DNA of 64,000 nucleotides from Patescibacteria group bacterium (GCA_041662565.1 JBAZSE010000001.1:129084-193083); one strand, 5' to 3'. Positions 12,653 through 38,758 are shown, counted from the stretch's first letter. Numbers and translations: made by a program. The notes: generated by a model not told the origin, from the sequence alone.

Positions 12653-12653
12653 A

Positions 12654-12893: not shown

Positions 12894-12917
12894 AGAGTAT
12901 TAATTTATAATTTAAGT

Positions 12918-13016
12918 ATTGTCATTTCGAGCGAGGCGTAAGCCGAGTCGAGAAATCTATGTTGTAGAACGAGAGGGATTTCTCCGTTCCGCTATCGCTT
13001 CAGTCGAAATGACAGA
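12918..13016 (-). ncRNA. Structured intergenic element in the ssb-rpsR spacer. Nested stem-loops, possibly a regulatory leader or processing site
   Basis: Outer stem GTCATTTCGA (12921-12930) pairs with TCGAAATGAC (13004-13013). Inner stem GAGAAATC (12950-57) pairs with GATTTCTC (12977-84). A further imperfect hairpin TCGAGCGAGGC / GCCGAGTCGA lies between them. Confidence 0.4.
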
Positions 13017-13028
13017 GAACATTTGAAT

Positions 13029-13511: not shown

Positions 13512-13554
13512 ATTATTAAATCGGTTAATTGTTTAATAGGATAATTGAACTTTA

Positions 13555-14040
13555 TTAAATAACTTTTTCGTCCAAAAGTTCATCAAGTTTTTTATCCAAA
13601 TCCTCCAAACTAATTTTGGGCTTGGCGGTTTTAACCGGCTGGGCCTGTCTGATTTCTTCTTTTTCAGCTTCTTTTTTAACCACTTCTTCTCTGATTTTGC
13701 CGGATTTGATTTTTTCCTGGCGGGCAATTTCGGCCGCAGTTTTAACTTTCTTTTTAATAACCAAATGCCTTAACACATTTTTATTCAGCTTTAAGGCGTT
13801 ATCAATCGCGGTTAAAGAAGCCGGGATCAAATCAAATTCGTAAGAAAAATAAAAGCCATGCTTTAAGTTTTTAATAGCATAGGCCAATTTTTTCCTGCCC
13901 AAATCCAAAACTCTGATGTTTTGGGCGCTGTTTTTTTCCAACAAATTTTTAACTTCCGCTAAAATAGCGGGATGTTCGTTTTCCGAGGCAGTGGCGTTGA
14001 TAATCAACGTTAGCTCGTAATGGGTGGCGTTTTCTTGCAT
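13555..14040 (-). CDS. rpsF: 30S ribosomal protein S6 with a Lys/Glu-rich C-terminal extension
   Basis: The N-terminal ~95 aa read 'HYELTLIIN ... GRKKLAYAI'. Gene order rpsF-ssb-rpsR is conserved. Confidence 0.85.
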   Translation of the reverse strand: MQENATHYELTLIINATASENEHPAILAEVKNLLEKNSAQNIRVLDLGRKKLAYAIKNLKHGFYFSYEFDLIPASLTAIDNALKLNKNVLRHLVIKKKVKTAAEIARQEKIKSGKIREEVVKKEAEKEEIRQAQPVKTAKPKISLEDLDKKLDELLDEKVI

Positions 14041-14260
14041 TTTTATAATGCTCGGCTGAGAAAAATATGGTTAATTTCTCGTCAGCTTGGCTTGATTACC
14101 CCGATTTTATAGAAAATTGGGGGTTTCGATAGATTTCTCTTCCGAAACTCGGTTAATTAAGCAGCAGCTTGCAGGGGTATTGTGGCAGATTGTCGGTCGA
14201 TTGTCAAGAATCAGCCGTTCTATTGCCAATCACCCTAAAAATCAGTAAGATATATCTATT

Positions 14261-15442
14261 ATGCTAAATTCAAATTCCAACAAATACGCCTTTATTTTAG
14301 GCCATGTGCCGGAACTTTCTGGGGCCGAAATTATTAAAGTGTTAGGGAGTCAAAATATCATTTTTGAAACAGTTTTGTCGTCTAAAGATTTTTTATTGGT
14401 TGAAGTAGGTGGGGAATTGGATGTTAAGGCGTTGCAGGAAAGGTTAGGGGGAACGATAAAGATATCACGTATCATGTATCATGTATCACAGGAAGAATTA
14501 GGTGATAAGGTTGAAGAAATAATAGCAGCGAAAAGGCCAAATAACCAAGAACAAAAATTTCAGTTCGGTTTCAGTTTGTATGGAAAAATGGATTTAAAGG
14601 AATTTCAGAATATGGGTTTAGCTCTTAAGAGGAAATTAAAAAACAGCGGAGTTGTTTGTAGGTTTGTTGTTTCTAAAGAAAAAAGTTTATCTTCCGTAAT
14701 TATTATTAAAGAACATCTTATTGGTCAGGGTTTGGATGTGGTAATTATAGAAGACGGTCAAAAGTACTATTTAGGTTACACGGTCGCTGTTCAGGATTTT
14801 AGGGACTATTCGGATCGGGATTTTGGCCGGCCCATGCGGGATAGTAAAAGCGGGATGATACCGCCAAAATTGGCTAAGATAATGCTTAATTTGTCCGGTG
14901 TTAATCCGCTGGCGGTAATTTTGGATCCTTTCTGCGGTTCCGGAACAATTTTGCAAGAGGCCTTGTTGATGGGTTATAAAAATCTGATCGGTTCTGATCT
15001 TTCGATAAAAGCCGTAGATGATACTAAAAATAATTTAAACTGGTTAAAAGCCAAATATAACTTGGATATATCTGGTATTAAAGTTTTAGAATTGGATGTT
15101 AGGAATTTGTCTAAAAAAGTTGTTGCCGAGTCAATTAATGCTATTGTCACGGAGCCGTATTTAGGAGAGGCCAAAAGTTCAAAGCTCAAAACTCAAAACT
15201 TTCTGGCACTAGCCGAGCTTTACATCCAAAGTTTTAAGGAATTTTATAAAGTTTTAAAGCCAAATGGAAAGGTTGTGATGATTTTGCCGATTATTGAAGG
15301 CCAAAAAATGGAGATTTTGGATCAAGTTACAAAAATCGGTTTTACCATGGAAAATTTAAGCGATAATCCCAGAAGTTCCATTGTTTATGGCAGGGAAGGA
15401 ACAAGGGTAGAGCGGGAAATCTTCGTTTTTAAGAAAAAATAA
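14261..15442 (+). CDS. Trm11 / UPF0020-like SAM-dependent RNA (m2G-type) methyltransferase
   Basis: N-terminus 'FILGHVPELSGAEI' is of the Trm11/Trm-G10 type. Motif I 'DPFCGSGT' and motif IV 'TEPYLG' are present. Confidence 0.6.
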   Translation: MLNSNSNKYAFILGHVPELSGAEIIKVLGSQNIIFETVLSSKDFLLVEVGGELDVKALQERLGGTIKISRIMYHVSQEELGDKVEEIIAAKRPNNQEQKFQFGFSLYGKMDLKEFQNMGLALKRKLKNSGVVCRFVVSKEKSLSSVIIIKEHLIGQGLDVVIIEDGQKYYLGYTVAVQDFRDYSDRDFGRPMRDSKSGMIPPKLAKIMLNLSGVNPLAVILDPFCGSGTILQEALLMGYKNLIGSDLSIKAVDDTKNNLNWLKAKYNLDISGIKVLELDVRNLSKKVVAESINAIVTEPYLGEAKSSKLKTQNFLALAELYIQSFKEFYKVLKPNGKVVMILPIIEGQKMEILDQVTKIGFTMENLSDNPRSSIVYGREGTRVEREIFVFKKK

Positions 15443-15443
15443 T

Positions 15444-16913
15444 ATGCCGACTTCTTTTAAAAAGGTTATTCATAAGGTTAGAACGGAAAAATGGTGGCTC
15501 GAAGAATGTCCGACCTCTTTTTTTCTTTTTGATTATATTATGAAAACTTTTGTTTCCGCTGGTCGTTTATTGGGCCGGCCCACGCTTAAACAATCAGTTT
15601 TTATTAATAAAAATAATTTGGGCATGGAGCTGAACCCTTACGATGAAAGGAAAAATAATTTTATAGATATTTATCAGCATGAGCTCAAAACTCAGGGGTA
15701 TTTTAAAAAATTATTTTTACCTTGGTTTAAAATTCGTCAAAATTTGGCAAAACTTAATGATTTAGCTATTAATAAAATTAATGGCTATTCTTCAGTTGAA
15801 CTATTAAGGTTTGCTAAAGAATTTCTTCAATTAGGTTTTGATTCGGTTGTTTATGGAGCGCTATTGGAGTGCGTTGATCCTTTTACCGAAAGTTTACCAA
15901 GAGATTTAAAATTAAGATACAATTTAACCAACGAGCAGGCACGCGATTATTCATCAATTTTATCGATCCCATTAGAAAGAAGTTTTTTAACCCAAGAAAA
16001 ATTGGATTTTTATTCACTTTGTTTGCATAAGCTAACGATCGTACAGTATATAGCAAAATATTATTGGATTAATTCCAACTATCGCCAATCTGGAGAACTA
16101 GAATTAGCTGATTTAAAAAAAAGAATTAAAAATGAATTGAAAATTTTTGGTGGCTCTGCTGGCATTAAAAAAGAAATCAAAAAAACCTTAAGGAACGAAA
16201 AAAAACTATTTTCTGATAAAAAAGCTATTTCTCAAAAACTTAAATTAATTAAGGCAGATAAAAAACTTTTTAAATTACTGGAGATTTTTGGCCATTATAT
16301 TGATTTAAGAAAAGAAAGCATGCTTCGACATACTTATGCCAGAGATAAGTTTTTATTAGAAATTAGCCGTCGAACTAATTATAAGATGGATGATTTAAGT
16401 GATTTGGATGACCAGGAAATTATTAAAGTTATACAAAAAAAACCTGTTAATTGGCGTCAAATCCGTTTAAGGCATAAGCTGTGCGTGGCTTATTATACCC
16501 CCTTTGAACGAAAAATATTTTATGGAAGTGAAGCAAAAAAAATTTATCAAACTTTCATTTTAAGTTTAAAAAGTGATCAATTAAAAGGCATGGTTGCTCA
16601 GCTCTCATCTCGGCTTATTAGAGGCAAAGTTTCTTTAGTTTTAGACATTTTTAAGGATAAATTTAAGCCGGGCAATATTTTAATTACTACTATGACTCGT
16701 CCGGAGTTTATGCCTCTAATGAGGCGAGCTAAAGCGGTGATTACCGATGAGGGAGGTTTAACCTGTCATGCTGCTATTATTTCTCGTGAATTAAAAATCC
16801 CCTGTATTATTGGAGTAAAAAACGCTACTAAAGTTTTAAAAAATAATGATTTTGTGGAGATGGATTTAAAAACAGGAGTAATTAAAAAAATAATCAATGA
16901 AAATAAACATTGA
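15444..16913 (+). CDS. PEP-utilizing-enzyme mobile (phosphohistidine swivel) domain protein, paralog 1 of 5. It has a unique N-terminal domain of about 380 aa
   Basis: C-terminus 'TTMTRPEFMPLMRRAKAVITDEGGLTCHAAIISRELKIPCIIG' is nearly identical to the PpsA / PPDK / rifampin-phosphotransferase His domain, with the catalytic His in 'TCHAAI'. Confidence 0.85.
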   Translation: MPTSFKKVIHKVRTEKWWLEECPTSFFLFDYIMKTFVSAGRLLGRPTLKQSVFINKNNLGMELNPYDERKNNFIDIYQHELKTQGYFKKLFLPWFKIRQNLAKLNDLAINKINGYSSVELLRFAKEFLQLGFDSVVYGALLECVDPFTESLPRDLKLRYNLTNEQARDYSSILSIPLERSFLTQEKLDFYSLCLHKLTIVQYIAKYYWINSNYRQSGELELADLKKRIKNELKIFGGSAGIKKEIKKTLRNEKKLFSDKKAISQKLKLIKADKKLFKLLEIFGHYIDLRKESMLRHTYARDKFLLEISRRTNYKMDDLSDLDDQEIIKVIQKKPVNWRQIRLRHKLCVAYYTPFERKIFYGSEAKKIYQTFILSLKSDQLKGMVAQLSSRLIRGKVSLVLDIFKDKFKPGNILITTMTRPEFMPLMRRAKAVITDEGGLTCHAAIISRELKIPCIIGVKNATKVLKNNDFVEMDLKTGVIKKIINENKH

Positions 16914-18354
16914 TTTAAAGCATGAACTATTTCAGTGGGGTCCGATTGACGCTAAATTGATTTATCCCGATTATTTTAGCTGGTCTTTTGTTAATTACGC
17001 CAAAAAATTTATTAGTTGGTCCGACCTTGTTGGTATTTTTAGTCAGGGCAAGGTAGTTTATTTCGGCGATAATCCTAATTTGAGAGAAAGAGGCAGAAAA
17101 AACTTTTATCGTTATATTCTACCCAATGAACAATTTAAAAAATATTATCAAGAATGGCAAAAATACCTTAAACATTTGATTAAGCTTCAACACAGTATTA
17201 CTCCAAAATATTTGCAGGCGCTGGATAACCATAACCTTAATCAATTATACCAGAAGTGGGTCAGGGCCTATCTTAATTTTTGGACAGTCGGCCTGTTGCC
17301 GGAATTATCTAACTGGGGCACTGAAGAGATTTTAAGTGAACGTTTGCGTCTAATCGTGCCTCAACAATATTTTAGCAAAGTTTTTGAAAAATTATCAGCT
17401 CCGTTAAGTTTGTCATTTTATCAGAGATCAGATTTGGAGTTATTGGCTTTAAGAAAATATTTTAAAAATAAAAAAGAATTTGATAAAAAATTATTCAAGT
17501 TTCAACAAAACCATTTTTGGCAATTAAATAGTTACGGCCATAGCCGTGTTTTACCAGTTGCATATTTTAAACAAGAGTTTTTGAAATATTCATCATCATC
17601 AGCAGCTCAAAAAGTTAGAGGATTAAAATTGTATAGCCAAAGAGTTAAATTGGTCAAGAAAAAAATAATAAAGCAATATCAGCTTGATGGCCAAACTGCT
17701 AAAATTGCCGATCGTTTAAGTTTTTGTGTTTGGTGGCAGGATCTAAGGAAATTTTACATTTTTTGGGCCAATCATTGTATTGATGTTTTTCTTAAAGAAT
17801 TTTCCAAAAGATATAAAGTTAGTTTTTTAGACCTTCATTTTTACAATGCAGAAGAATTATCAAAGTTGTCAGTCCAAGGCTTAAAAATCAATAGTCAGAT
17901 TATTTGGGCAAGAAAAAAATTAGTTGTTTGTCATTATGCAGAAAAAAATAATAAGCTTGATTATATCATTGGTGCTCGAGCAAAAACAATTAAGAAAAAA
18001 TTTACCAATTCAAAAGAAAAGCCTAATAATCTTCAAGAAATAAACGGTTTAACTGTCAGTTTGGGCAAAACAATCAGGGGCAAAGTTAAAATAATTACTT
18101 CGCCAAAAAATATAGGTAAAATGCAGCCAGGCGATATTTTAGTCGCTTCCATGACCAGTCCGGATTATATTGTGGCCATGAAAAAGGCCTTGGCGATTAT
18201 AACTGATGCTGGAGGCATGACGGCTCACGCGGCCATTGTTAGCCGTGAATTAAAAATTCCCTGCATTGTTAACACTAAAATCGCTACTAAAGTATTGCGC
18301 GACGGTGATTTAGTGGAAGTTGATAGTAAACATGGTGTTATTAAAAAATTGTAA
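16897..18354 (+). CDS. PEP-utilizing-enzyme mobile domain protein, paralog 2
   Basis: C-terminus 'MTSPDYIVAMKKALAIITDAGGMTAHAAIVSRELKIPCIV'. It overlaps the upstream gene by 17 nt. Confidence 0.85.
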   Translation: MKINIDLKHELFQWGPIDAKLIYPDYFSWSFVNYAKKFISWSDLVGIFSQGKVVYFGDNPNLRERGRKNFYRYILPNEQFKKYYQEWQKYLKHLIKLQHSITPKYLQALDNHNLNQLYQKWVRAYLNFWTVGLLPELSNWGTEEILSERLRLIVPQQYFSKVFEKLSAPLSLSFYQRSDLELLALRKYFKNKKEFDKKLFKFQQNHFWQLNSYGHSRVLPVAYFKQEFLKYSSSSAAQKVRGLKLYSQRVKLVKKKIIKQYQLDGQTAKIADRLSFCVWWQDLRKFYIFWANHCIDVFLKEFSKRYKVSFLDLHFYNAEELSKLSVQGLKINSQIIWARKKLVVCHYAEKNNKLDYIIGARAKTIKKKFTNSKEKPNNLQEINGLTVSLGKTIRGKVKIITSPKNIGKMQPGDILVASMTSPDYIVAMKKALAIITDAGGMTAHAAIVSRELKIPCIVNTKIATKVLRDGDLVEVDSKHGVIKKL

Positions 18355-18360
18355 GGATAC

Positions 18361-19806
18361 ATGAATCAGGCCAAATTAATAAAAAAAGTTAAATCAACCA
18401 ATTGGTACCGTCAGGGCGGAGGCATTAACATGCTGTATTGTTCTGTACCTTATCGTTCGGGCGCTAAAACTTTTGATTGTCAGATTTTTTTCAAGGGTCA
18501 TAATAATTACGGTTATTTTAATAAAGATAATGAAAGGCGCTTATTAAATTATTTTATTAGACGTCACCTTAAAGATAAGAATTATTTGACTAGTAAAATT
18601 AATCGTTGGCGGGTTTTGGTAAAACATCAACAGTCATTTTTAAGCCAATTGAATGCAATTTACCTCAAAAAGTTAAGTAATGCCGATTTTTTTAATGTTT
18701 ATCGCAAATTTTGTTTGTTCCAACTGGCCTATTGGCAACCGACTTTAATGATTGAATACTCTGATCCTTGGAGCGATAAAATTATTAGTGATTACCTAAC
18801 TAAATATCGACTTAAATTATCGGCTCAAAATTTATCGATTTTGACCGCTCCCAAGCTTTTAACTTTTGCTCAACAGGAAGAGCTAGATCTTTTATCAATT
18901 GTGAAAAATTATCTGGCTCACAGGAATATCAACAGACAATTAGCAAATCACGCAAAAAAATATTCCTGGCAGAGTATTACCTGGCTCAAGGCAAAAATGT
19001 TGTCGCAAGTATATTTTTTAAAGCGCCTAAAAGAGATGGCCAAACTTTCACATCAACAGATTAATGAAAGAATTAGGAATTTAAGCGGTTATTCATTAAA
19101 AATCAATAGATCTAAATCTACGATTGTTTCCAAAAATCATTTAAACAGCAGTCAGGTTGCCTTATTTGATTTTTTTGCATGTTTGTGCGATTGGCGTGAG
19201 GAAAGAAAAAAGTATGGCATGCTTAATAATAAACTGACTGAGAATTTTGCCGAAGAACTGGCTAAGCGGAGCGGCGTGGATAAGCATTTATTGTATTTTT
19301 TGGATGGTTTTGAGATTACTAGTTTACCTAAGATTGTTAAAATGACGGTGGAACTTAAAAAGCGGCAGAGAGCAGTTTTTTACAATTATACTTCCATGGG
19401 AATTTGGCGCTTGGTAGGCCAAGAAGCGGAAAAAATGAATAAGATTTTTGAAAACCGGATTAATTTGAAAAATGAGGAATTACAGGGTTTTATTGCCTGT
19501 CGGGGGATGGCATTTGGCCGGGTTAAAGTTATTATGTCCCACTCTGAATTTAAGAAATTTAAGCCAGGCGATGTTTTAGTTACCCAAATGACCAGGCCAG
19601 AGTTTGTGCCATTGATGAAAAAAGCGGCCGCAATTATTACCGATGAAGGCGGTATTACCTCACATGCCGCGGTAATTTCCAGAGAACTTAATAAGCCCTG
19701 CATTATCGGCACTCAAGTGGCTACCAGTTTATTAAAAGATGGTGATAGGGTAGAAGTGGATGCTAATAAGGGGATTGTAAAATTGTTAGAAAAAGCATTC
19801 CAATGA
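18361..19806 (+). CDS. PEP-utilizing-enzyme mobile domain protein, paralog 3
   Basis: C-terminus 'MTRPEFVPLMKKAAAIITDEGGITSHAAVISRELNKPCIIG'. Confidence 0.85.
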   Translation: MNQAKLIKKVKSTNWYRQGGGINMLYCSVPYRSGAKTFDCQIFFKGHNNYGYFNKDNERRLLNYFIRRHLKDKNYLTSKINRWRVLVKHQQSFLSQLNAIYLKKLSNADFFNVYRKFCLFQLAYWQPTLMIEYSDPWSDKIISDYLTKYRLKLSAQNLSILTAPKLLTFAQQEELDLLSIVKNYLAHRNINRQLANHAKKYSWQSITWLKAKMLSQVYFLKRLKEMAKLSHQQINERIRNLSGYSLKINRSKSTIVSKNHLNSSQVALFDFFACLCDWREERKKYGMLNNKLTENFAEELAKRSGVDKHLLYFLDGFEITSLPKIVKMTVELKKRQRAVFYNYTSMGIWRLVGQEAEKMNKIFENRINLKNEELQGFIACRGMAFGRVKVIMSHSEFKKFKPGDVLVTQMTRPEFVPLMKKAAAIITDEGGITSHAAVISRELNKPCIIGTQVATSLLKDGDRVEVDANKGIVKLLEKAFQ

Positions 19807-19807
19807 T

Positions 19808-21268
19808 ATGAAGAAAATAAAAGAAATTTATTGGGAGCAACTTTATACCAGGCGTTTTAGTATTCATAAACTTGATGTTTTTTTATCGCATATAGGCAAA
19901 GAGCTGAAAAAAAATTTTTCCGCCGATCTGACCAATATTTTAATTATCGGCCAAGGCTTGGAAGCTAAATGGTATTTTGACAAAAATCAATTTAAACGGT
20001 TTGGCGAAAAGGTATTGCGCAAAACAATAAATGATGCAAGAAAAGACGGCAATCACATAAGGGCAATGGTTAACCGAGCTAAGGACGCTCTTAAATCTAT
20101 TTTGAGTTTTAAGCAAATTGATTTTAAAAGTTTAAGCCCAGCTGAATTACTTAGGCATTACCATCATTTTTTACAGGCCGCGGATAGCGCCATTCCGATT
20201 ATTTACGCTCCATTGACGCTTGACAATCAATTATTTGTTTACCTGAAAAAAATATTGGATGGAGTTTATCAAAAGGATCAATCAGAAGCGGTTTTTCATT
20301 TTATAACCCAACCGATTAAGCGTATTCCGATAATTCAACTAGAGATTGATCTTTTAAAATTTTTAAATAAAAATCAGCGATCTAAATTTAGCCATAATAG
20401 TTTGGAGCGATTACGTAAAAAATATCTCTGGTATGGCATGAGTTTTGTTGATAGCCGACCAGCGAAGATCGAGGATTTTATTAAGCTTTTAAAAAAGTAT
20501 AAAAAAAGTCAGTCGCAAGGTAAATTGGCGTTATATCTAAAAGAATCCCAAAAAGTAAGGGTAAAATTCCATAAGATTGTATCTGCTTTTTCGCAGCCGG
20601 ATCGCCGTTTTTTGCGTCTGATAAACCAATATTGTTATTTAATGCAATATCGTGATGTCTGCCGTAGCCTTGTTTTCTATTATGGCCACTTTCTTTATCA
20701 GGAAATTTCCAGAAGATTTGGAATCATTATTAATGATTTAATGTTCTATACCATTGATGAGATGGCCAAGCTTATCGGAACAGGCAAAAGACAGGATAAG
20801 CCGGAAATTCAAAGAAGAAAGAGGCGTTTTATTTATCTAATGATTGATAATCGGGTTAAACTCATTAGTCAGCCTCAAAAGATAAAAAACATCATGACGA
20901 TAATTAATCGGCAGTCTGATAAACCAAGTATTAATAAACACCATAAGTTATTTGGCCACAGTGCCTATCTGGGTAGGGTCCAGGGAAAGGTTAGGATTAT
21001 TAGGATTAACCGCCTGTATCAAGATTTGCTTAGAATCAAAAATGGTGAAATTTTAGTGGCTCATAGCACAAAACCTGATTTTGTGCCGGCAATGAAAAAA
21101 GCGGCGGCAGTTATTACCGATGAAGGCGGAATTACCTGCCACGCGGCGGTTATCAGTCGGGAGCTAAAAATTCCCTGTGTTGTAGGCACTAAAATCGCTA
21201 CTAGGGTTTTTATAACCGGCGATATGGTGGAAGTGGATGCCGACAAAGGCATAGTCAGGAAATTATAA
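19808..21268 (+). CDS. PEP-utilizing-enzyme mobile domain protein, paralog 4
   Basis: C-terminus 'STKPDFVPAMKKAAAVITDEGGITCHAAVISRELKIPCVVG'. The start is 2 nt after the upstream stop. Confidence 0.85.
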   Translation: MKKIKEIYWEQLYTRRFSIHKLDVFLSHIGKELKKNFSADLTNILIIGQGLEAKWYFDKNQFKRFGEKVLRKTINDARKDGNHIRAMVNRAKDALKSILSFKQIDFKSLSPAELLRHYHHFLQAADSAIPIIYAPLTLDNQLFVYLKKILDGVYQKDQSEAVFHFITQPIKRIPIIQLEIDLLKFLNKNQRSKFSHNSLERLRKKYLWYGMSFVDSRPAKIEDFIKLLKKYKKSQSQGKLALYLKESQKVRVKFHKIVSAFSQPDRRFLRLINQYCYLMQYRDVCRSLVFYYGHFLYQEISRRFGIIINDLMFYTIDEMAKLIGTGKRQDKPEIQRRKRRFIYLMIDNRVKLISQPQKIKNIMTIINRQSDKPSINKHHKLFGHSAYLGRVQGKVRIIRINRLYQDLLRIKNGEILVAHSTKPDFVPAMKKAAAVITDEGGITCHAAVISRELKIPCVVGTKIATRVFITGDMVEVDADKGIVRKL

Positions 21269-21318
21269 CACTTATGTCTAAAATTTTATATCTTTGGGAT
21301 TTGGCCGACACATGATTT

Positions 21319-21897
21319 TTGGAAAAATGGAATGCCCAGTTAACTGGTTATGCCACTTTTGATGACTATGCCAAAGCTAAGATAAAAAATCCAACTGACC
21401 CCAGGCAATATGAAAATGCCTTTAAGGAGCCATATATAAATGGAGAAATGTATAATTTGACTTTGGCTGAAGGTTTTAAAGAAGTTTTAACTTGGACCAA
21501 AAACAACGAGGCCTTTACTACCGGCGTTAAAGAGCAAATGGATTGGCGGGCGAGTTATTTAAATCCCAAGGAAGGTTTAGATGTTAGGAGTTTTTTTAAA
21601 AATATAAATACCACTTTTGATTATGCAAAAACCAATATTAAAACCAAGAAAATGTTGATTCAATATTTAAAAAGCAAAATTGACGAAGGTTATAAAACAG
21701 TAGTTTATACCGACGATAAGCTGAAAAATTGCCAGTTATTTAAAGAAGCCATTGATGCGGTTAAGCAACAAGGTTTAAATTTAAATTGCCGGATTTATCA
21801 CATTTTAAATAGTGCCAGTCGTGTTGATAATCAGGGGTGGTATACAGTAATAGGGAACTTGAAAGATTTATTAAAAAGTGAGAAGCTATATTTGTAA
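21319..21897 (+). CDS. Hypothetical protein (192 aa) inside the paralog array. The start codon is uncertain (TTG in the ORF track)
   Basis: ORF only, with no recognisable motif. An ATG at 21312 lies in a different frame and stops quickly. Confidence 0.35.
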   Translation: MEKWNAQLTGYATFDDYAKAKIKNPTDPRQYENAFKEPYINGEMYNLTLAEGFKEVLTWTKNNEAFTTGVKEQMDWRASYLNPKEGLDVRSFFKNINTTFDYAKTNIKTKKMLIQYLKSKIDEGYKTVVYTDDKLKNCQLFKEAIDAVKQQGLNLNCRIYHILNSASRVDNQGWYTVIGNLKDLLKSEKLYL

Positions 21898-21914
21898 CAA
21901 TTAACCATAAGTAT

Positions 21915-23417
21915 ATGTCTGGAGCAGTTACACATTCGGGAAAATGGCGGATTAAGCCCTCTGGCCAACTGCCAATTTTCTTAAGATTTATCATCAATTC
22001 TTCATTTACTAAGGCCAATGCCAATAAAGCAGGGATTAAAACTGCCATGCCTAACCGTACATATTTAAACCACATGATGTATTGGCGAGCCGAGGAATAT
22101 AATGCTTTTGAAGATGAAATTCTCGGTTATATGAAATCAAATAACGGATGGTTTGAAAAATTTTGTAGTCAACAGTTAAAAATTTGTGAGCAAACATACC
22201 AAACGGGCTTGGAGTTGAAAAAAATTGATTGGTCCATTAAAACCAATCAGCAAATAGCCGATATTTTAGAAAAGCTTCTTCAAGAATATCGTGAGCTGAC
22301 TTGCCCGTGGTATACCCAGTATCCTCTGGATGAATATTTTGAAACAATCATTGAGCAGAAATTATCGGAATATATCAAGGCCGATGAACCGGATTTTAGA
22401 AAATGCGTTTTAATTTTTAGCGATCCCAAAGAAATGACCGAGGTGGCGGAAGAACGTTGGCGCCTGATGCAAATGGCAAAGGATTTTTTTGCCGCTAAAG
22501 AAGATCTGGATCATTTATCGGCTTCATCTCAAGCCAAGATTAATAACCATTTAGATAAATTTGCCTATATCAATCGAGGTCTGGCAACAAGCAAACCATA
22601 TTCTTACGATGATATAATTAATCGTTTAAAAGAGGTTAAACATCAATTGGCAAATGGTAAAAAAATTAATGATTTGATTTATGAAGTTTCCGCAGAAAAA
22701 ATAGCGGAAGATTATGCTTGGGCGTTGAAAAAAATCAAGCCCAAGAAGGATTTTAAGAGAATCATTGATTTGGCCAGGTTAAATTCCTATTTCCGAAATC
22801 GTAGGGTTGAGGCCTTTTTTAATGCCGATTACGGCGCTAGTTTTGCTTATGCCGAAGTGGCTAAAAGAAATAATTTTAATCCTGATTGGATTATGGAAAT
22901 TTCCGTTCCGGAAATGATGGCGGCTTTAAAAGAAGGCAAGCCATTGCCCAATGATAAAGAGATGAAAATGCGATTAAAAAACTACGCTATGTTGGTTAGA
23001 AATTCGGAAACAGAATTAATTACCGATCCGCAAAGGATCAAAGACCTGGAAAAGGAGTACTCGGTTGAGGTGGAAGAAGCGGAAGAAATCCAGGGTCGCA
23101 TGGCCTGTTTGGGCGGAATTATCAGGGGCCATGCTAAAATTTGTTTGGATAAATCGGAAATCAGCAAAGTTTTAAGAGGGGATATTTTGGTAGCACAATT
23201 TACCACGCCGGATTTTGTGCCAGCCATGGAAAAAGCCGCGGCCATTGTAGCTGATCAAGGCGGCCTTTCTTCGCACGCGGCCATTGTTTCTCGAGAATTA
23301 GGGGTGCCTTGCGTGATTGCCACTAAAAATGGTACTCGGGTTATTAAGGAAAATGATTTATTGGAAATTAACGGTCAAACTGGATTGGTAAAAATTATTA
23401 AAAGAGCTGATAAGTAA
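21915..23417 (+). CDS. PEP-utilizing-enzyme mobile domain protein, paralog 5
   Basis: C-terminus 'FTTPDFVPAMEKAAAIVADQGGLSSHAAIVSRELGVPCVIA'. Confidence 0.85.
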   Translation: MSGAVTHSGKWRIKPSGQLPIFLRFIINSSFTKANANKAGIKTAMPNRTYLNHMMYWRAEEYNAFEDEILGYMKSNNGWFEKFCSQQLKICEQTYQTGLELKKIDWSIKTNQQIADILEKLLQEYRELTCPWYTQYPLDEYFETIIEQKLSEYIKADEPDFRKCVLIFSDPKEMTEVAEERWRLMQMAKDFFAAKEDLDHLSASSQAKINNHLDKFAYINRGLATSKPYSYDDIINRLKEVKHQLANGKKINDLIYEVSAEKIAEDYAWALKKIKPKKDFKRIIDLARLNSYFRNRRVEAFFNADYGASFAYAEVAKRNNFNPDWIMEISVPEMMAALKEGKPLPNDKEMKMRLKNYAMLVRNSETELITDPQRIKDLEKEYSVEVEEAEEIQGRMACLGGIIRGHAKICLDKSEISKVLRGDILVAQFTTPDFVPAMEKAAAIVADQGGLSSHAAIVSRELGVPCVIATKNGTRVIKENDLLEINGQTGLVKIIKRADK

Positions 23418-23421
23418 TAAT

Positions 23422-24432
23422 ATGGAAAAAGAACAAAATTTAGGCCAAGTAGAACTAGCTAATGAAGCTTCCATTGAGTCCGAAGCAAAGCCACGCTATC
23501 AGATTTATATTACCAGGCATGCCGAACGCCTGCCGTCCGGCGAACTTACTCCGGAAGGCATTGCACACGCCAAGGCCAAAGGCGAGGCCTTTAAAGATGT
23601 GGAAGTGTTAAAGCAATACGCCAGCGATCATCCCAGTGGTCGGGCTTATGAAACTGCCGAAAATATTGGCGGTCAGGCTAATGTAACTTCATTGCAGACC
23701 GACGAGCGTTATAAAACCAGAAAGGTTAAGGGTATTCAGTACGATCAGCTCCCGCCTAACGTTCTTAAAGACGCTAAATTGTTGATTGAGGGAGCGACTT
23801 TGGCTGAAATTTACCAAGAACACGTTGAATTGGCCGCTTTAATCGACGAGGCAATTGCCAATGACACAACGGGCGCGATGATAAAAAAAGACGTCAGCGG
23901 TCAGCCGATGGTGGATATAGAAAAGCTGCCTAAGGATATTCAGTTAAAAATCGGACCAATCAGGCAAAAACATCAAAAAGAGGGTTTTCAACAGGTAATT
24001 GAAAATCCAGAAGCAGTTAATAATTTGGCCAGTGATTTATCGCATCAGCTTATTGAAAAACAAGAAATTTTAGCCAGGTATGCTTCCGGAAGAGAGAAAA
24101 AGAAAGTTACTACTAAAAAAGATGTAGTGATTAATATCAACACTCATGGTTTATTTGCCGAATCATTACTTAAAACAGCGGGTATTTTTGTGCGTGCCGA
24201 CGGTACGGAAATTCACGGAATTGCTGACCTGGATACACCGGAGTTTGGCGGCTATATTCAGCCGGCCGAGTCGATTATTTTGGATTTAGGCATTGATCCT
24301 AATAACACGCCCGAACGCATTCCAGTTATTTTTGAAGGCAGGCAAATAAAAGGGCGTGTTTATCTTGATAAATCAAAATTACAAGCGCTCGATCAAGTCT
24401 ATCGTTTAGCGCATCAGAGTGATAGAGAATAA
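23422..24432 (+). CDS. Hypothetical protein, possibly of the histidine-phosphatase (PGAM-like) superfamily
   Basis: N-terminus 'IYITRHAERLPSGELTPEGIAHAKAKGE' resembles the RHG ... LT ... G core, but the canonical G and N residues are missing. The call is weak. Confidence 0.3.
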   Translation: MEKEQNLGQVELANEASIESEAKPRYQIYITRHAERLPSGELTPEGIAHAKAKGEAFKDVEVLKQYASDHPSGRAYETAENIGGQANVTSLQTDERYKTRKVKGIQYDQLPPNVLKDAKLLIEGATLAEIYQEHVELAALIDEAIANDTTGAMIKKDVSGQPMVDIEKLPKDIQLKIGPIRQKHQKEGFQQVIENPEAVNNLASDLSHQLIEKQEILARYASGREKKKVTTKKDVVININTHGLFAESLLKTAGIFVRADGTEIHGIADLDTPEFGGYIQPAESIILDLGIDPNNTPERIPVIFEGRQIKGRVYLDKSKLQALDQVYRLAHQSDRE

Positions 24433-24474
24433 AAAATCAATAAATTTTTATTAATTTTTGACCGGTTAGAGGAA

Positions 24475-24530
24475 GAACTCTGGCCGGTTTTAAAATATTG
24501 TAAGAAAACCCATTTTTGTGTTATAATTAG
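24475..24530 (+). promoter_or_regulatory. Weak terminator hairpin followed by an extended -10 promoter (TGtTATAAT at 24519-24527). This is upstream of the PPDK_N gene and so upstream of the T4SS operon
   Basis: GACCGG ... CCGGTTTT hairpin at 24468-24490, then 'TGTTATAAT', 28 nt ahead of the ATG at 24556. Confidence 0.5.
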
Positions 24531-24555
24531 TCATGAAATATGGTTTTTAAAAGTT

Positions 24556-25524
24556 ATGAACACCTTTGTTTTACCCTTTTCCAAAATAAATAAAAAAAGC
24601 GTGGCAATAGCCGGAGGCAAAGGCGCTTCGCTCGGAGAAATGACAACCGCAAAACTGCCTGTTCCGCCAGGATTTGTGGTTTTAGCCAGCACTTTTGATC
24701 AGTTTTTAAATAATACCCCTCCGCCAGTTGGGTGTGGGCAGGATTTAAACGTTTATATCGAAGCGGAGTTAAAAAAAGTTAATCATCAGGATGTTAGTTC
24801 GGTTGATAAGGCATCGCATGTTATTCAGGATATGATTCATAAGGCAACGATGCCTGTTTCAATGGCAGAGGCCATTGTTAAAGAGTATAAAAAATTAAAA
24901 ACCAAGTGGGTGGCAGTCCGTTCATCGGCTACTGCGGAGGATTCTTCAATTGCCTCCTGGGCAGGCGAGTTGGACACTTTTTTGTTCATTGACGATAAAC
25001 ATTTGGTAGAAGCGGTAAAAAAATGCTGGGCCAGTTTATTTACTCCACGCGCCATTTTTTACAGGTTTGAAAAAAAATTGCATAAAACAGCGGTGAGTGT
25101 GGCTGTAGTGGTTCAACAAATGGTTGATTCTCAAATTTCCGGCGTGGCTTTTTCGGTCCACCCGGTTACTAAAGACAAAAATCAGCTGATTATTGAAGCC
25201 GGCTACGGTTTGGGTGAAGCTATAGTTTCGGGCACCATTACGCCCGATAGCTATGTAGTCCATAAAAAAGAAGGTACAATTTTGGATATTAATATTTCCA
25301 AGCAGGAAAAACAGATTATTTTAAAAGCAGGGGGGGGTTCGGTTTTAAAACCTGTAGCCAAGTCAATTCAGGAAAAACAAAAATTAACTGGCAAACAAAT
25401 TATTGAATTGGCCGAAATTGTTAAAAAGATAGAAAAACATTACGGCAAACCCCAGGATATAGAATGGGCCTTATTTAAAAATAAATTTTATATATTGCAG
25501 TCCAGACCAATTACTACTCTATGA
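24556..25524 (+). CDS. Stand-alone PEP synthase / PPDK N-terminal ATP-binding (ATP-grasp, PPDK_N) domain protein
   Basis: 'AIAGGKGASLGEM', 'LPVPPGFVV', 'AVRSSATAEDS', 'GVAFSV', 'EAGYGLGEAIVSG' and 'IEKHYGKPQDIEWA' are collinear with the PpsA N-domain. No His or TIM-barrel domain follows. Confidence 0.85.
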   Translation: MNTFVLPFSKINKKSVAIAGGKGASLGEMTTAKLPVPPGFVVLASTFDQFLNNTPPPVGCGQDLNVYIEAELKKVNHQDVSSVDKASHVIQDMIHKATMPVSMAEAIVKEYKKLKTKWVAVRSSATAEDSSIASWAGELDTFLFIDDKHLVEAVKKCWASLFTPRAIFYRFEKKLHKTAVSVAVVVQQMVDSQISGVAFSVHPVTKDKNQLIIEAGYGLGEAIVSGTITPDSYVVHKKEGTILDINISKQEKQIILKAGGGSVLKPVAKSIQEKQKLTGKQIIELAEIVKKIEKHYGKPQDIEWALFKNKFYILQSRPITTL

Positions 25525-26783
25525 CAGCAAATAGTTTACAATCTACTAATGATGAAATCCTGGTTATGGATGAAACCGGCCAGTTTCAGGTTTTATCTAA
25601 TGGCGAGCTAAAACCTTTTAATGGCGCTTCTTATCAAACAATTGGTAATGAAGTTGAGGCGACCGAAGAGAAATTACAGCCGATTTTGCCAATGGATACA
25701 GGTTATGAAGAAAAAATGATCCAGCCCCCGCCTCCTGCTTTATATAAACAAACTTCCAGTTTTTATTTTCATCCCGAAGATGAAGAAGAAGCTGCCAAAC
25801 ATAAAGCCAATATACCGGCATCTGGTCCGCAAAAAAAATATTCTTTGGATAAAATCGTTGCCAAAATAGTTGAAAATTATAAATTAACCTTAACGCCCGA
25901 ATTAAACAACAGATTAAGGTCATTGGTTTACAGTTTTTTGCGCGATCGTCGGAGCGAAGCCGATGCCAAGGGTTTGCTGGAGCGGCCGGTTACCGAAGCC
26001 GGTTTGGATTTTGAAAACGGCTTGGCGGAAAATTTATTGGAATTTTTAAAGGAAATTAAAGGTAAGATTTTAACAGCCGGCGGAATAGTGGTTGACGAAA
26101 ACCAGGAGGCGCCTCAAGTTGCTGTTGGTAATATTTCTTCGGTTTCATTGCCCGAAGTTAAAAAGGCCATGCCTGTTGAACTGCCTAAAGATAAGCCGGT
26201 GGCACCAATCCAGCCGGAAGTAAAAATTGAACTGCCAACAAGCCGGCCAACTCCGATTATTAAAACCGTTTCGGATGCTGTTTCTTTAAATCAAGTTGAA
26301 AGTCGTGTGCCCTATGTAACAGAGCCCTTGGTACAGCGCCAGCCCTTGCCTGATTTGCCAGTTGGGGCTTTTAAGCCGTCTATGCCCATTTACACCAAAA
26401 TGGCTCGGCCCGAAAAGCAAGGCGCCAGCCGGATTAACGATATTAAAAAGGATTATAAGCTGGTTGGGCCGGTAGAAGAGTTATCCATATTAACCTTGGA
26501 AACTTTTAGAAGATTGGGCGCTACTACCCAGGAAAGAGTTCAAAAAATCATGAGCAAAATAGATTTGCTAAGCAAAGATTCTTTGGCTAAAAAATCTTTA
26601 GGAATTTCGGCTTGGCGCACCAGTTCGTTATACAAAATGTATGTTTCTTTGGGGCATGCTAGCATGGAGCATAATTTGGATTTAGCAGGCGTAATTAAAG
26701 AATATTCCGCCCAAGGCCAAGAAATTTTAACCATGGAAGAGTTTAATGCCATTACCGATTTAAATAAGCAATTAAGATTCTAA
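25521..26783 (+). CDS. Hypothetical protein (420 aa) with a Pro-rich central region. It forms ATGA and TAATG overlaps with its neighbours
   Basis: ORF with operon-style overlaps on both sides. No recognisable motif. Confidence 0.5.
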   Translation: MTANSLQSTNDEILVMDETGQFQVLSNGELKPFNGASYQTIGNEVEATEEKLQPILPMDTGYEEKMIQPPPPALYKQTSSFYFHPEDEEEAAKHKANIPASGPQKKYSLDKIVAKIVENYKLTLTPELNNRLRSLVYSFLRDRRSEADAKGLLERPVTEAGLDFENGLAENLLEFLKEIKGKILTAGGIVVDENQEAPQVAVGNISSVSLPEVKKAMPVELPKDKPVAPIQPEVKIELPTSRPTPIIKTVSDAVSLNQVESRVPYVTEPLVQRQPLPDLPVGAFKPSMPIYTKMARPEKQGASRINDIKKDYKLVGPVEELSILTLETFRRLGATTQERVQKIMSKIDLLSKDSLAKKSLGISAWRTSSLYKMYVSLGHASMEHNLDLAGVIKEYSAQGQEILTMEEFNAITDLNKQLRF

Positions 26784-27241: not shown

Positions 27242-27251
27242 ACAAATCGTT

Positions 27252-38643: not shown

Positions 38644-38758
38644 GGTTTGATTTTATCAGATTTTACTTATAAAAAATAGATGTTCACCCGATGCTTAGTT
38701 GATATTGACAAATAGGCCAAACTGTAATAAAATTCAAACCATCTTCCAGTATAAATGG

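What the first reader, a model, noticed from the sequence alone, without database searches (positions are those of the whole stretch)
14261..25524. Split PEP-synthase / rifampin-phosphotransferase-like system: five tandem phosphohistidine-swivel paralogs plus a separate ATP-grasp (PPDK_N) protein
Five consecutive, tightly coupled genes (15444, 16897, 18361, 19808, 21915) each encode a divergent ~380-aa N-terminal region. That region is fused to a nearly canonical C-terminal PEP-utilizing-enzyme mobile domain carrying the catalytic His ('GG-T-HAA-I/V-SRE ... PC'). None carries the ATP-binding domain. A stand-alone PpsA-type ATP-binding N-domain gene (24556-25524), collinear with the PpsA N-terminus, follows behind its own extended -10 promoter. 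No PEP/pyruvate TIM-barrel domain is encoded anywhere nearby. [substrate-binding domain]-[His domain] with the ATP-binding domain supplied elsewhere is the domain order of rifampin phosphotransferases and water dikinases, here split into separate polypeptides. One shared ATP-binding domain could therefore charge five alternative His carriers with different acceptor specificities. The array follows a Trm11-like methyltransferase and precedes a possible histidine-phosphatase-like protein. The ATP-binding gene is the first cistron of the T4SS-like operon. I am not aware of such an arrangement having been described
Basis: partly seen in the sequence, partly recalled or inferred. Interest (0 to 1): 0.85.

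Follow-up and report, generated by a model that had tools for sequence, protein, structure and literature searches.

The report
One ATP-charger, five swivel-kinase modules
A tiny symbiotic (Patescibacteria) bacterium encodes one ATP-binding kinase subunit and five different phosphate-carrying acceptor subunits. This is a split, one-to-many version of the rifampin-phosphotransferase type of enzyme, it is widespread in ultra-small bacteria and archaea, it is routinely mislabelled "PEP synthase", and its substrates are unknown.

Summary
Five co-directional genes (15444-23417) each encode a roughly 380-aa N-domain plus a PF00391 phosphohistidine swivel domain. A separate 322-aa PPDK_N ATP-grasp gene lies at 24556-25524. 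None of the 36 window ORFs scanned has a TIM-barrel domain.

The N-domains are not decayed ATP-grasp domains. They are homologous to each other. A confident model of paralog 5 aligns over 404 residues only with Listeria rifampin phosphotransferase (RIF-binding plus swivel domains).

The split itself is already known, as 1:1 pairs (HpeHI, CreHI, phenylphosphate synthase PpsAB). I found no description of three things:
- One ATP-grasp gene per locus (never two) beside 1-10 swivel domains in 31 of 79 related loci, in arrays of up to 12.
- Natural polyproteins with one ATP-grasp domain and up to six acceptor modules.
- Near-restriction to CPR bacteria and DPANN archaea, with cross-domain exchange.

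The acceptors are unknown. Embedded or fused HAD phosphatases, a nucleotidyltransferase and phosphotransacetylase point to small-molecule phosphate esters.

Verdict: a real new variant of a known kind. The mechanism is inferred, not shown.

The parts
14261..15442 (+). UPF0020/Trm11-like SAM methyltransferase. It is the first gene of the tightly packed operon (1-nt gap to paralog 1). It is a neighbour only in the closest relatives and is not part of the conserved system.
   Evidence: PF01170 E 4e-15 and PF01555 E 2e-9. TIGR01177 E 2e-29 but below its cut-off. An orthologue with the same position is found only in L030 and L105/L106, 59% identical in L105.
15444..16913 (+). Acceptor subunit S1: RIF-binding-like N-domain plus phosphohistidine swivel domain (His442, codon 16767-16769).
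   Evidence: PF00391 E 8e-25. NCBIfam RPH-type profiles match residues 243-481. Motif GGLTCHAA; YIDLRK aligns to RPH Y665-K670. It has no orthologue in the close relative L105.
16897..18354 (+). Acceptor subunit S2 (His444, codon 18226-18228).
   Evidence: PF00391 E 6e-26. Its orthologue in L105 is 72% identical. N-domain orthologues occur in Patescibacteria (L027, 324 bits) and in a Nanoarchaeota single-cell genome (L017, 242 bits).
18361..19806 (+). Acceptor subunit S3 (His435, codon 19663-19665). It keeps an Arg-Glu pair (WREERK) at the position of RPH R666-E667.
   Evidence: PF00391 E 6e-26. RPH profile NF041857 matches residues 307-476. Alignment to 5fbs.
19808..21268 (+). Acceptor subunit S4 (His445, codon 21140-21142).
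   Evidence: PF00391 E 4e-26. Its N-domain is a singleton among 200 N-domains at 30% identity or more.
21275..21897 (+). HAD-fold gene ('X192') interrupted by an in-frame TGA at 21314-21316. Intact relatives read KTLYLWDLAxTLF, which is HAD motif I with Asp+2 replaced by Ala.
21915..23417 (+). Acceptor subunit S5 (His454, codon 23274-23276), the conserved member of the array.
23422..24432 (+). Divergent histidine-phosphatase-superfamily protein (HP), a conserved partner of S5.
   Evidence: PF00300 E 2e-6. Family-invariant T31 R32 H33 E35 R36 ... H242 E247. The profile hits the PGM-like structure 3r7a at E 7.5e-5. It follows S5 orthologues, or the HAD gene next to them, in L006, L015, L027, L039 and L105; in L003 it lies upstream.
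24498..24527 (+). Promoter-like site with an extended -10 (TTGTAA-18-TATAAT, TG upstream) in the 123-nt gap before the ATP-grasp gene.
   Evidence: 10 of 12 matches, TG present. Site counts in the region are not above shuffles, so this is weak evidence.
24556..25524 (+). Stand-alone ATP-grasp (PPDK_N) 'charging' subunit, translationally coupled (4-nt overlap) to the first gene of the chromosomal T4SS cluster.
   Evidence: PF01326 E 1.7e-96. It aligns residues 1-322 to RPH-Lm 1-316 (E 5e-59) and matches the HpeI crystal 9GOJ (E 4.6e-49). K22, R117, T136 and E297 are conserved. It is the most conserved gene of the locus against L105, at 86%.

Best explanation
The locus encodes a two-component, rifampin-phosphotransferase (RPH)-type dikinase built one-to-many.

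Proposed cycle:
1. The 322-aa ATP-grasp protein (24556-25524) binds ATP.
2. The C-terminal swivel domain of any of the five acceptor proteins docks on it, and its catalytic His is charged. AMP and Pi are released.
3. The swivel domain returns to its own roughly 380-aa RIF-binding-like N-domain. There a basic/acidic segment aligned to RPH R666-E667-K670 positions the phosphoryl group, which passes to a bound small-molecule hydroxyl.

The five N-domains are only 14-24% identical to each other, while the swivel domains are 43-55% identical. I therefore read them as five acceptor specificities sharing one charger.

My preferred biological reading is as follows. In these metabolically reduced episymbionts the modules phosphorylate a panel of scavenged or foreign small molecules. 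For at least some modules the product is a phosphate ester that is processed further by a nucleotidyltransferase, HAD or His-phosphatase-family enzymes, or phosphotransacetylase.

Shown here: the domain architecture, the folds, the conserved catalytic residues, the gene stoichiometry and the natural fusions.
Inferred: phosphotransfer in trans, the AMP + Pi stoichiometry, one charger serving all five proteins, and the nature of the acceptors.
For: - Architecture.
- Sequence: the profile of the five paralogs matches RPH residues 602-866, including the R666-E667-K670 segment.
- N-domains: they are mutually homologous.
- ATP-grasp: it is collinear with RPH residues 1-316 and with HpeI (9GOJ). It keeps K22, R117, T136 and E297, the residues mutated in PMC4844700.
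- Biochemical precedent: HpeHI, CreHI and PpsAB need both components, and the His-to-Gln variant of HpeH is dead.
- One-to-many stoichiometry: in 79 related loci there are 296 swivel domains (up to 12 per locus). ATP-grasp genes number 0 or 1 per locus, never 2.
- Fusions: L057 joins one ATP-grasp to six modules, L060 to four, and P0203 to three. The ATP-grasp domain can be N-terminal, internal (P0214) or C-terminal (P0341).
- Conservation: the ATP-grasp gene is the most conserved gene of the locus against a close relative (86%), while array membership differs. Swivel domains average 49% identity against 19% for N-domains. About 95% of swivel domains in the loci keep the His motif.
- Small-molecule context: HAD fused to an S5 orthologue (P0028); a cytidylyl/adenylyltransferase fused to a module (L031); phosphotransacetylase fused between modules (P0199); and HAD, PTA, acetyltransferase and nucleotidyltransferase genes embedded in arrays.
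Against: - No biochemical data exist for any member of this subfamily.
- The ATP-grasp gene is separated from the array by a 123-nt gap with a promoter-like site and is coupled to T4SS genes instead.
- 48 of 79 loci, including 12 of the 26 with five or more swivels, show no ATP-grasp gene within the fetched DNA. Some of these are cut by contig ends.
- The residue at the RPH R666 position is Ile in S1 and Gln in S2.
- The swivel motif is PEP-synthase-like (Thr at -2), unlike HpeH and RPH. Another donor or a form of regulation therefore cannot be excluded.
- The acceptor class is unknown, and the context genes point in more than one direction.
Confidence: 0.7

Rival explanations
1. Same machinery, used as a resistance or detoxification battery. 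Each module inactivates a different antibiotic or host- or competitor-made toxin by phosphorylation, as RPH does with rifamycins.
For: - The closest solved structure is an antibiotic kinase.
- Stogios et al. place RPH in a wide family of small-molecule dikinases, some of which act on antibiotics.
- Array content turns over between close relatives.
- Arrays sometimes embed families typical of drug modification: a Vat/CatB-like hexapeptide acetyltransferase, APH, Pol-beta nucleotidyltransferases and a metallo-beta-lactamase-fold protein.
- CPR resistome surveys list rph-like hits.
Against: - S5 is 58-81% identical across many lineages and is always accompanied by phosphatase-family genes, which looks like metabolism rather than resistance.
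- Fusions to a nucleotidyltransferase, HAD and PTA imply that the phosphate ester is used further rather than discarded.
- Rifampin-binding residues were not examined and no drug is implicated.
Confidence: 0.2
2. The acceptor proteins are not charged by the neighbouring ATP-grasp protein. They take phosphate from another donor (PEP, acetyl phosphate or a phosphorylated metabolite) and act as phosphotransferases or mutase-like enzymes. The ATP-grasp protein would serve only S5, or have a T4SS-related role.
For: - HpeH alone catalysed phosphotransfer from 4-phosphoacetophenone to acetovanillone.
- Many arrays have no ATP-grasp gene within the fetched DNA.
- Phosphotransacetylase, which makes acetyl phosphate, is embedded in four arrays and fused into P0199.
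- The ATP-grasp gene here begins a separate, T4SS-coupled transcription unit.
Against: - Covalent fusions of one ATP-grasp domain with 2-6 modules argue for direct charging.
- In relatives the ATP-grasp gene overlaps or abuts array genes (L006, L027, L016, L046).
- T4SS coupling is seen only in the closest relatives.
Confidence: 0.1
3. The proteins form a protein-level phosphorelay or regulatory system (PTS-like). The swivel His~P is passed to protein targets or controls transcription, rather than to small molecules.
For: - The swivel domain is shared with PTS enzyme I.
- Two relatives carry an N-terminal XRE-type HTH fused to a module (L011, L063).
- TrmB-type regulators flank arrays in 10 loci.
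- The X192 HAD-fold family lacks the Asp+2 general acid, which might stabilise an aspartyl-phosphate.
Against: - The N-domain fold is that of a small-molecule-binding domain.
- No HPr- or EIIA-like partners were found among array-embedded genes.
- HTH fusions are rare.
Confidence: 0.05
4. The genes are duplicated, decaying fragments of ppsA.
For: Databases name them 'PEP synthase/PPDK' or 'PEP-utilizing enzyme'. The neighbouring X192 gene carries an in-frame stop.
Against: - All five ORFs are intact and keep the catalytic motif.
- The N-domains are not PPDK_N. They are a distinct fold with 2,346 clusters at E <= 1e-10.
- S5 and S2 have conserved orthologues.
- For 180 of 195 N-domains the closest relative is in another genome, so these are old subfamilies and not recent debris.
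Confidence: 0.01

Closest known systems
Two-component small-molecule dikinases HpeHI (Rhodococcus), CreHI (Corynebacterium) and phenylphosphate synthase PpsAB (Thauera/Aromatoleum)
   Same: The ATP-grasp and the [RIF-binding-like domain + His swivel] are separate polypeptides encoded side by side. The window's ATP-grasp matches the HpeI crystal 9GOJ (E 4.6e-49). As for HpeH, RPH is the only solved structure spanning the acceptor protein. The catalytic His is essential in HpeH.
   Different: The known systems are 1:1 pairs for phenolic catabolism in free-living bacteria. HpeH is 71 kDa and has Met at -2 of the His. PRK08296-type profiles, with which I compared the window proteins, match them only over the swivel region; that these profiles represent the PpsA/HpeH type is my assumption. 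Here there is one ATP-grasp for five acceptors (up to 10 beside one ATP-grasp and up to 12 swivel domains per locus elsewhere). The acceptors are about 56 kDa with a PpsA-type GGxT[SC]H motif. There are also multi-module polyproteins, and the hosts are CPR/DPANN.
Rifampin phosphotransferase (RPH-Lm; PDB 5FBS/5FBT/5HV1)
   Different: RPH is one chain with one acceptor domain. Identity is only 16%. The RIF-binding-like domain here is about 50 residues shorter. R666 is replaced in S1 and S2. There is no evidence for rifamycin as substrate.
PEP synthase (PpsA) / pyruvate phosphate dikinase
   Same: The best sequence matches for both the swivel (8a8e, E 4e-44) and the ATP-grasp (8a8e, E 4e-68) are PpsA. 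The regulatory-type Thr at -2 of the His is kept.
   Different: There is no PEP/pyruvate TIM-barrel domain (PF02896) in any of these proteins or nearby. A RIF-binding-like domain takes its place. The 'PEP synthase' annotation is therefore wrong as a statement of function.
Prodigiosin/undecylprodigiosin ligases PigC/RedH/HapC and glucan water dikinase
   Same: They belong to the same ATP-grasp plus swivel-His superfamily with a non-TIM acceptor domain. NCBIfam PigC/RedH profiles hit both components.
   Different: They are single-chain enzymes of secondary metabolism or starch phosphorylation, with different acceptor domains and domain orders.
PTS enzyme I to HPr to multiple EII branches (analogy only)
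   Same: It works like a hub: one energy-coupling protein feeds phosphate through a His carrier to many substrate-specific acceptors. It shares the swivel fold.
   Different: In the PTS the donor is PEP rather than ATP, the specificity modules are membrane transporters, and there is no RIF-binding-like domain.

Membership tests
Two-component RPH-type small-molecule dikinase (HpeHI/CreHI/PpsAB type) | A stand-alone ATP-grasp (PPDK_N) component with intact ATP-site residues | tested here: met
   PF01326 E 1.7e-96. End-to-end alignment to RPH residues 1-316 with K22, R117, T136 and E297 conserved. 9GOJ (HpeI) E 4.6e-49.
Two-component RPH-type small-molecule dikinase (HpeHI/CreHI/PpsAB type) | A separate component made of a RIF-binding-like domain followed by a C-terminal swivel domain with the catalytic His | tested here: met
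Two-component RPH-type small-molecule dikinase (HpeHI/CreHI/PpsAB type) | The genes for the two components are adjacent or co-operonic | tested here: met
   Both are on the same strand. The ATP-grasp gene lies one gene and 123 nt after S5. In relatives it directly abuts or overlaps array genes (L006, L016, L027, L046) and is fused to them in others.
Two-component RPH-type small-molecule dikinase (HpeHI/CreHI/PpsAB type) | Both components are required for ATP-dependent phosphorylation, with AMP + Pi as products (dikinase chemistry) | not testable with these tools
   This needs purified proteins and labelled ATP.
Two-component RPH-type small-molecule dikinase (HpeHI/CreHI/PpsAB type) | Close sequence kinship of the acceptor component with HpeH/CreH/PpsA (about 45% identity among those three) | tested here: inconclusive
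   PRK08296-type profiles match only the last 100-165 residues of the window proteins. Single-chain RPH-type profiles (PRK06241, NF041857) reach 170-250 residues. I assumed that PRK08296 represents the PpsA/HpeH type. No HpeH/CreH/PpsA sequence was compared directly, so this test is indirect. The result points to a separate subfamily.
Rifampin phosphotransferase (RPH) proper | A single chain with the order ATP-grasp, RIF-binding domain, swivel | tested here: not met
   The ATP-grasp is a separate gene.
Rifampin phosphotransferase (RPH) proper | The Arg666-Glu667 dyad essential for the second phosphotransfer | tested here: inconclusive
   The aligned residues are I-D (S1), Q-D (S2), R-E (S3), R-D (S4) and R-N (S5). 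A further Arg or Lys lies 2-3 residues on in all five.
PEP synthase / PPDK | A C-terminal PEP/pyruvate-binding TIM-barrel domain (PF02896) | tested here: not met
   No PF02896 hit in the six proteins or in 30 other window ORFs.
HAD superfamily (for 21275-21897, X192) | A Rossmann-like HAD core with motif I DxDxT, motif II S/T, motif III K and motif IV DD | tested here: inconclusive
Histidine phosphatase superfamily, branch 1 (for 23422-24432) | An RHG-type motif with the nucleophilic His, plus a second catalytic His | tested here: met
   TRHAER (R32, H33) and THG (H242) are invariant in 30 family members. Overall similarity is weak: PF00300 E 2e-6 and 3r7a E 7.5e-5.
Known anti-phage defence systems (PADLOC) | A match to a defence-system protein model | tested here: not met
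   No hits for the five paralogs, HP or the ATP-grasp, apart from one marginal Cas1b match for S3 (E 7e-4). Only the methyltransferase matches generic MTase/mad2 models.

The most novel reading that the evidence does not exclude
CPR bacteria and DPANN archaea share, and exchange across the domain boundary, a combinatorial kinase platform. One ATP-grasp charger serves a plug-in library of thousands of acceptor modules, encoded as arrays or as polyproteins with up to six modules. On this reading the platform is a main route by which these reduced episymbionts trap and activate scavenged metabolites. It may also include chemistry new to the family, for example modules coupled to phosphotransacetylase that make or use acyl phosphates.
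Probability: 0.25. Interest if true: 0.85.

Novelty: new variant of a known kind. Interest (0 to 1): 0.7.

Why it matters
1. These genes are annotated as "PEP synthase/PPDK" or "PEP-utilizing enzyme" in CPR and DPANN genomes. They lack the pyruvate-binding domain, so metabolic reconstructions that count them as gluconeogenic enzymes are probably wrong. Jaffe et al. 2020 already needed extra domain checks for PEP synthase hits in CPR.

2. The family is large: 2,346 clusters at 50% identity match the N-domain profile at E <= 1e-10. It is concentrated in the two radiations of ultra-small symbionts and is exchanged between them. It is therefore a candidate lifestyle trait of organisms whose physiology is largely unknown.

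3. One charger with many acceptor modules, including natural multi-module polyproteins, extends the recently defined two-component dikinase class. It could also serve as a modular scaffold for engineered phosphorylation.

4. The substrates can be tested directly with recombinant proteins.

Tried and rejected
- Degenerate PPDK_N N-domains: rejected. There is no PF01326 signal, and both fold and profile match the RPH RIF-binding domain.
- Conjugative or mobile-element context, suggested by the T4SS genes: rejected. The window is chromosomal core, with EF-P, S6, SSB, RadA, RecG, ParAB, RelA/SpoT, DprA, Der and HisRS. It fits the chromosomal T4SS context described for ABY1-class Patescibacteria.
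- Defence system: no PADLOC match apart from one marginal Cas1b hit for S3 (E 7e-4).
- Riboswitch or other RNA element in the intergenic regions: no Rfam hit at E <= 1 in 13500-27500.
- Phage origin: IMG/VR holds only swivel-only matches (query residues 335-487), none with the N-domain.
- Recent tandem duplication or rapid in-place diversification: rejected. Only 11 of 195 N-domains have their best relative in the same locus.
- X192 as a relative of the HAD domain fused in P0028: BLAST found nothing. The HAD fold of X192 was shown by modelling instead.
- Foldseek against AFDB50 was not available.
- Literature searches for a description of the arrays in CPR/DPANN found none. That library lacks most subscription journals, so absence is not proven.
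- Reverse operation to make ATP from AMP + Pi and a phosphorylated metabolite: judged unlikely on thermodynamic grounds for anything weaker than PEP. This is my own estimate from standard free energies, not a tool result.

Full report
**1. The observation**

Eight + strand genes are packed with gaps of -17 to +17 nt:
- a methyltransferase (14261-15442)
- S1 (15444-16913), S2 (16897-18354), S3 (18361-19806) and S4 (19808-21268)
- S5 (21915-23417)
- a phosphatase-like gene (23422-24432)

A 123-nt gap follows. Then comes the ATP-grasp gene (24556-25524), which overlaps the next gene by 4 nt.

Pfam finds one C-terminal PF00391 swivel domain in each of S1-S5 (E 5e-24 to 4e-26) and nothing significant in their first 380 or so residues. 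It finds a full PF01326 domain in the 322-aa protein (E 1.7e-96). All five keep GG[LMI][TS][CAS]HAA..SRE..PC, with the His at 442, 444, 435, 445 and 454. No PF02896 TIM-barrel domain was found in any of 36 window ORFs scanned. The TTGTAA-18-TATAAT site with an upstream TG exists at 24498-24527. Promoter-like sites are not enriched over shuffles in this region, so it counts for little.

**2. Where this is**

The window is chromosomal core DNA of a Patescibacteria (CPR) bacterium. The exact proteins occur in a MAG named "Patescibacteria group bacterium" on an 809-kb contig.

Neighbours are EF-P, SSB and S6 upstream. Downstream lie a chromosomal T4SS cluster (PrgI, VirB4-like ATPase, T4SS pilin, DsbA-like protein) and then RadA, RecG, ParA/ParB, RelA/SpoT, DprA, Der and HisRS. 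T4SS genes next to recG and radA is the context reported for the ABY1 class (PMC12102498). This is not a plasmid or a conjugative element.

**3. What the proteins are**

*N-domains.* They are homologous to each other (pairwise phmmer E down to 8e-20, forming a connected network). They are very divergent, at a mean of 19% identity, while the swivel domains average 49%.

A profile of the five proteins matches Listeria rifampin phosphotransferase (RPH) over residues 602-866. That stretch is the last third of its RIF-binding domain plus the swivel.

*Catalytic segment.* Arg666-Glu667 (with Lys670) is essential for the second phosphotransfer in RPH (PMC4844700). It aligns to YIDLRK, WQDLRK, WREERK, YRDVCR and FRNRRV in S1-S5. 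The acidic or amide residue and at least one basic residue are kept in all five. The first Arg is kept only in S3-S5.

*ATP-grasp protein.* It aligns end to end with RPH residues 1-316 (E 5e-59) and with the HpeI crystal structure 9GOJ (E 4.6e-49). It keeps K22, R117, T136 and E297.

The proteins are not PEP synthases either, although databases name them so.

**4. What is already known**

Splitting this enzyme type into an ATP-grasp protein and a [RIF-binding-like + swivel] protein has been described. Examples are phenylphosphate synthase PpsAB, CreHI, and the recently characterised HpeHI. [quoted passage not shown] There both components are needed, the His-to-Gln variant is inactive, and HpeH alone can pass phosphate between substrates. 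These are 1:1 pairs in aromatic catabolism.

**5. What seems not to be described**

A degenerate-pattern scan of one genome per species returned more than 594 relatives. I looked at the best 79 loci.

*Taxonomy.* By record title, 30 are CPR/Patescibacteria and 31 are DPANN or unclassified archaea. Most of the other 18 are automated third-party (TPA) bins labelled Gammaproteobacteria, Methanosarcinales and the like. At least one of those labels is wrong: L030, labelled Gammaproteobacteria, shares the window's Patescibacteria synteny down to the T4SS genes.

*Stoichiometry.* These loci hold 296 swivel domains, with a median of 3 and a maximum of 12 per locus, nearly always on one strand. ATP-grasp genes number 0 or 1 per locus and never 2. 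In the 31 loci that have one, 1 to 10 swivels accompany it. About 95% of swivel domains keep the His motif.

*Fusions.* Uninterrupted ORFs join one ATP-grasp domain to several modules. L057 (2969 aa) has six, L060 has four, and L005, L041, L055 and L058 have two. Independent gene calls in the protein libraries show the same thing. The ATP-grasp domain is N-terminal in P0203 and P0280, internal in P0214 and C-terminal in P0341. A charger that can sit anywhere in the chain fits swivel domains that reach it in trans.

*Family size.* The N-domain profile finds 3,873 clusters at E <= 1e-3 and 2,346 at E <= 1e-10, among 1.84 billion representatives clustered at 50% identity.

*Viruses.* Viral contigs contain only swivel-only matches.

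*Literature.* Searches found no account of these arrays. A CPR resistome survey merely lists rph-like hits. Jaffe et al. mention needing extra domain checks for PEP synthase hits in CPR.

**6. How the arrays evolve**

Array members are old, distinct subfamilies and not recent tandem copies. For 180 of 195 N-domains the best relative lies in another genome; for only 11 it lies in the same array. Best hits often cross the bacteria/archaea boundary, reaching 56% identity over 377 residues between a Patescibacteria locus and a Woesearchaeota locus. Two hundred N-domains fall into 133 clusters at 35% identity or more.

A close relative, L105 (GCA_040960375.1), has the same flanks and shares these genes:

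| Gene | Identity to the window |
|---|---|
| ATP-grasp | 86% |
| HP | 83% |
| S5 | 81% |
| S2 | 72% |
| X192 | 70% |
| Methyltransferase | 59% |

L105 lacks S1, S3 and S4. In their place it carries a different 527-aa paralog, a Fic-domain gene and two small unknown ORFs. The locus therefore has a conserved core and a variable set of modules. The charger is its most conserved gene, as expected for a hub that must fit many partners.

**7. Clues to the acceptors**

S5 forms a highly conserved orthologue group: most of the 120 listed clusters are 58-81% identical. Its partners recur:
- X192, close to S5 and usually upstream of it.
- An ordinary HAD hydrolase directly downstream. The window lacks it. 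In P0028 it is fused to the S5 orthologue.
- The His-phosphatase-like protein HP, usually just downstream.

Elsewhere:
- A module is fused to an N-terminal cytidylyl/adenylyltransferase domain (L031). That enzyme class acts on phosphate esters and is paired with a kinase in HldE, RibF and NadR (the pairing is from my own knowledge).
- Two modules carry an XRE-type HTH.
- A complete phosphotransacetylase domain sits between modules in P0199 (E 4e-60 to 1td9). PTA genes are embedded in four arrays.

Among 76 same-strand genes embedded in arrays, the recurrent families are HAD (6), PTA (3), hexapeptide acetyltransferase (3) and Pol-beta-type nucleotidyltransferase (3). Single cases include lumazine synthase, flavokinase, isochorismatase, NUDIX, APH and a metallo-beta-lactamase-fold protein.

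This mixture fits small-molecule substrates. It does not decide between salvage or activation of metabolites and modification of foreign compounds.

**8. Mechanism proposed**

By homology with RPH, PpsAB and HpeHI:
1. The ATP-grasp protein binds ATP.
2. The swivel His of any of S1-S5 is charged, releasing AMP and Pi.
3. The swivel returns to its own N-domain.
4. The phosphoryl group passes to a bound hydroxyl compound.

Shown here are the architecture, the folds, the catalytic residues, the 1-to-many gene stoichiometry, the fusions and the conservation pattern. Inferred are trans-phosphorylation, the products, the sharing of one charger by all five proteins, and the substrates.

Three points count against a simple picture:
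- The ATP-grasp gene here heads a separate unit coupled to T4SS genes. That arrangement is seen only in the nearest relatives (L030, L105, L106).
- Many arrays show no ATP-grasp gene within the DNA fetched.
- The PpsA-type Thr before the His hints at a regulation or donor chemistry not seen in HpeH.

**9. Verdict**

The system belongs, by architecture and fold, to the two-component RPH-type dikinases. It forms its own subfamily and a new organisational variant, with one charger and many modules, in arrays and in polyproteins. It is characteristic of CPR and DPANN. Substrates and physiological role are open.

Noticed in passing
window 21275-21897 (TGA at 21314-21316): The small gene between paralogs 4 and 5 is a HAD-fold gene cut by an in-frame TGA inside motif I (MSKILYLWDLADT*FLEKWN). 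Relatives are intact (most 202-214 aa) and carry D-x-A-x-T instead of DxDxT. A 99%-identical 192-aa gene call exists in another assembly (P0180), so the stop is probably real. It could be a pseudogene, an N-terminally truncated protein or a read-through product.
   Followed up: yes
P0199 (1836 aa); L001:3-647, L009:11242-12231, L017:1899-2888, L021:9102-10112: A complete phosphotransacetylase domain (E 4e-60 to PDB 1td9) is fused between dikinase acceptor modules in one polyprotein. PTA genes also sit inside four arrays. This suggests a link between some modules and acetyl- or acyl-phosphate metabolism that I cannot explain.
   Followed up: partly
L031:9285-11216; L011:9311-11092; L063:2670-4418; P0028: Acceptor modules occur fused to other domains: an N-terminal cytidylyl/adenylyltransferase domain (Taylorbacteria), an XRE-type HTH domain (two cases) and a C-terminal HAD phosphatase (an S5 orthologue).
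   Followed up: partly
L105:3927-9313 (GCA_040960375.1), compared with window 15444-21268: A close relative with identical flanks has a different array: S2 and S5 orthologues plus an unrelated 527-aa paralog, a Fic-domain gene and two unknown ORFs of 191 and 204 aa. It has no S1, S3 or S4. In L030 the S1-like gene is broken into fragments (4535-4921 and 4989-5240).
   Followed up: partly
L012, L013, L018, L019, L020, L024, L030, L047, L053, L058, L063, L064, L066: Third-party (TPA) MAG records labelled 'uncultured Gammaproteobacteria', 'Methanosarcinales', 'Pseudomonadales' or 'Bdellovibrionales' carry this CPR/DPANN-type array. L030 shares the window's Patescibacteria synteny including PrgI, so at least that label looks unreliable.
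   Followed up: partly
window 24556-27241: The ATP-grasp gene overlaps the next gene (25521-26783, 420 aa, no family hit) by 4 nt. That gene overlaps PrgI (26783-27241) by 1 nt. The dikinase charger is therefore translationally coupled to the chromosomal T4SS cluster. The same order is seen in L030 and L105/L106 only.
   Followed up: partly
window 92-7657, 7660-10782, 54444-63542: Three giant ORFs (2521, 1040 and 3032 aa) are almost without recognisable domains. The first has one CBM_4_9 hit, and the 3032-aa ORF has no match to any solved structure. Two proteins with T4SS-pilin domains (33399-35156, and 52650-54431 with a Big_5 domain) lie nearby. They may be cell-surface or host-interaction proteins.
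   Followed up: no
window 38699-39787 and 38759-38845: The mechanical ORF call for ParA starts at a TTG that overlaps tRNA-Leu(CAA). The ParA domain begins at residue 108, so the true start must lie downstream of the tRNA.
   Followed up: no
window 12653-13028 (minus strand): The gap between EF-P and SSB probably holds ribosomal protein S18, which is 76 aa in the syntenic relative L105 and falls below the ORF length cut-off I used.
   Followed up: no
L001-L079 generally: TrmB-family transcriptional regulators (PF01978) flank arrays in 10 of 79 loci, often on the opposite strand and sometimes twice per locus.
   Followed up: no
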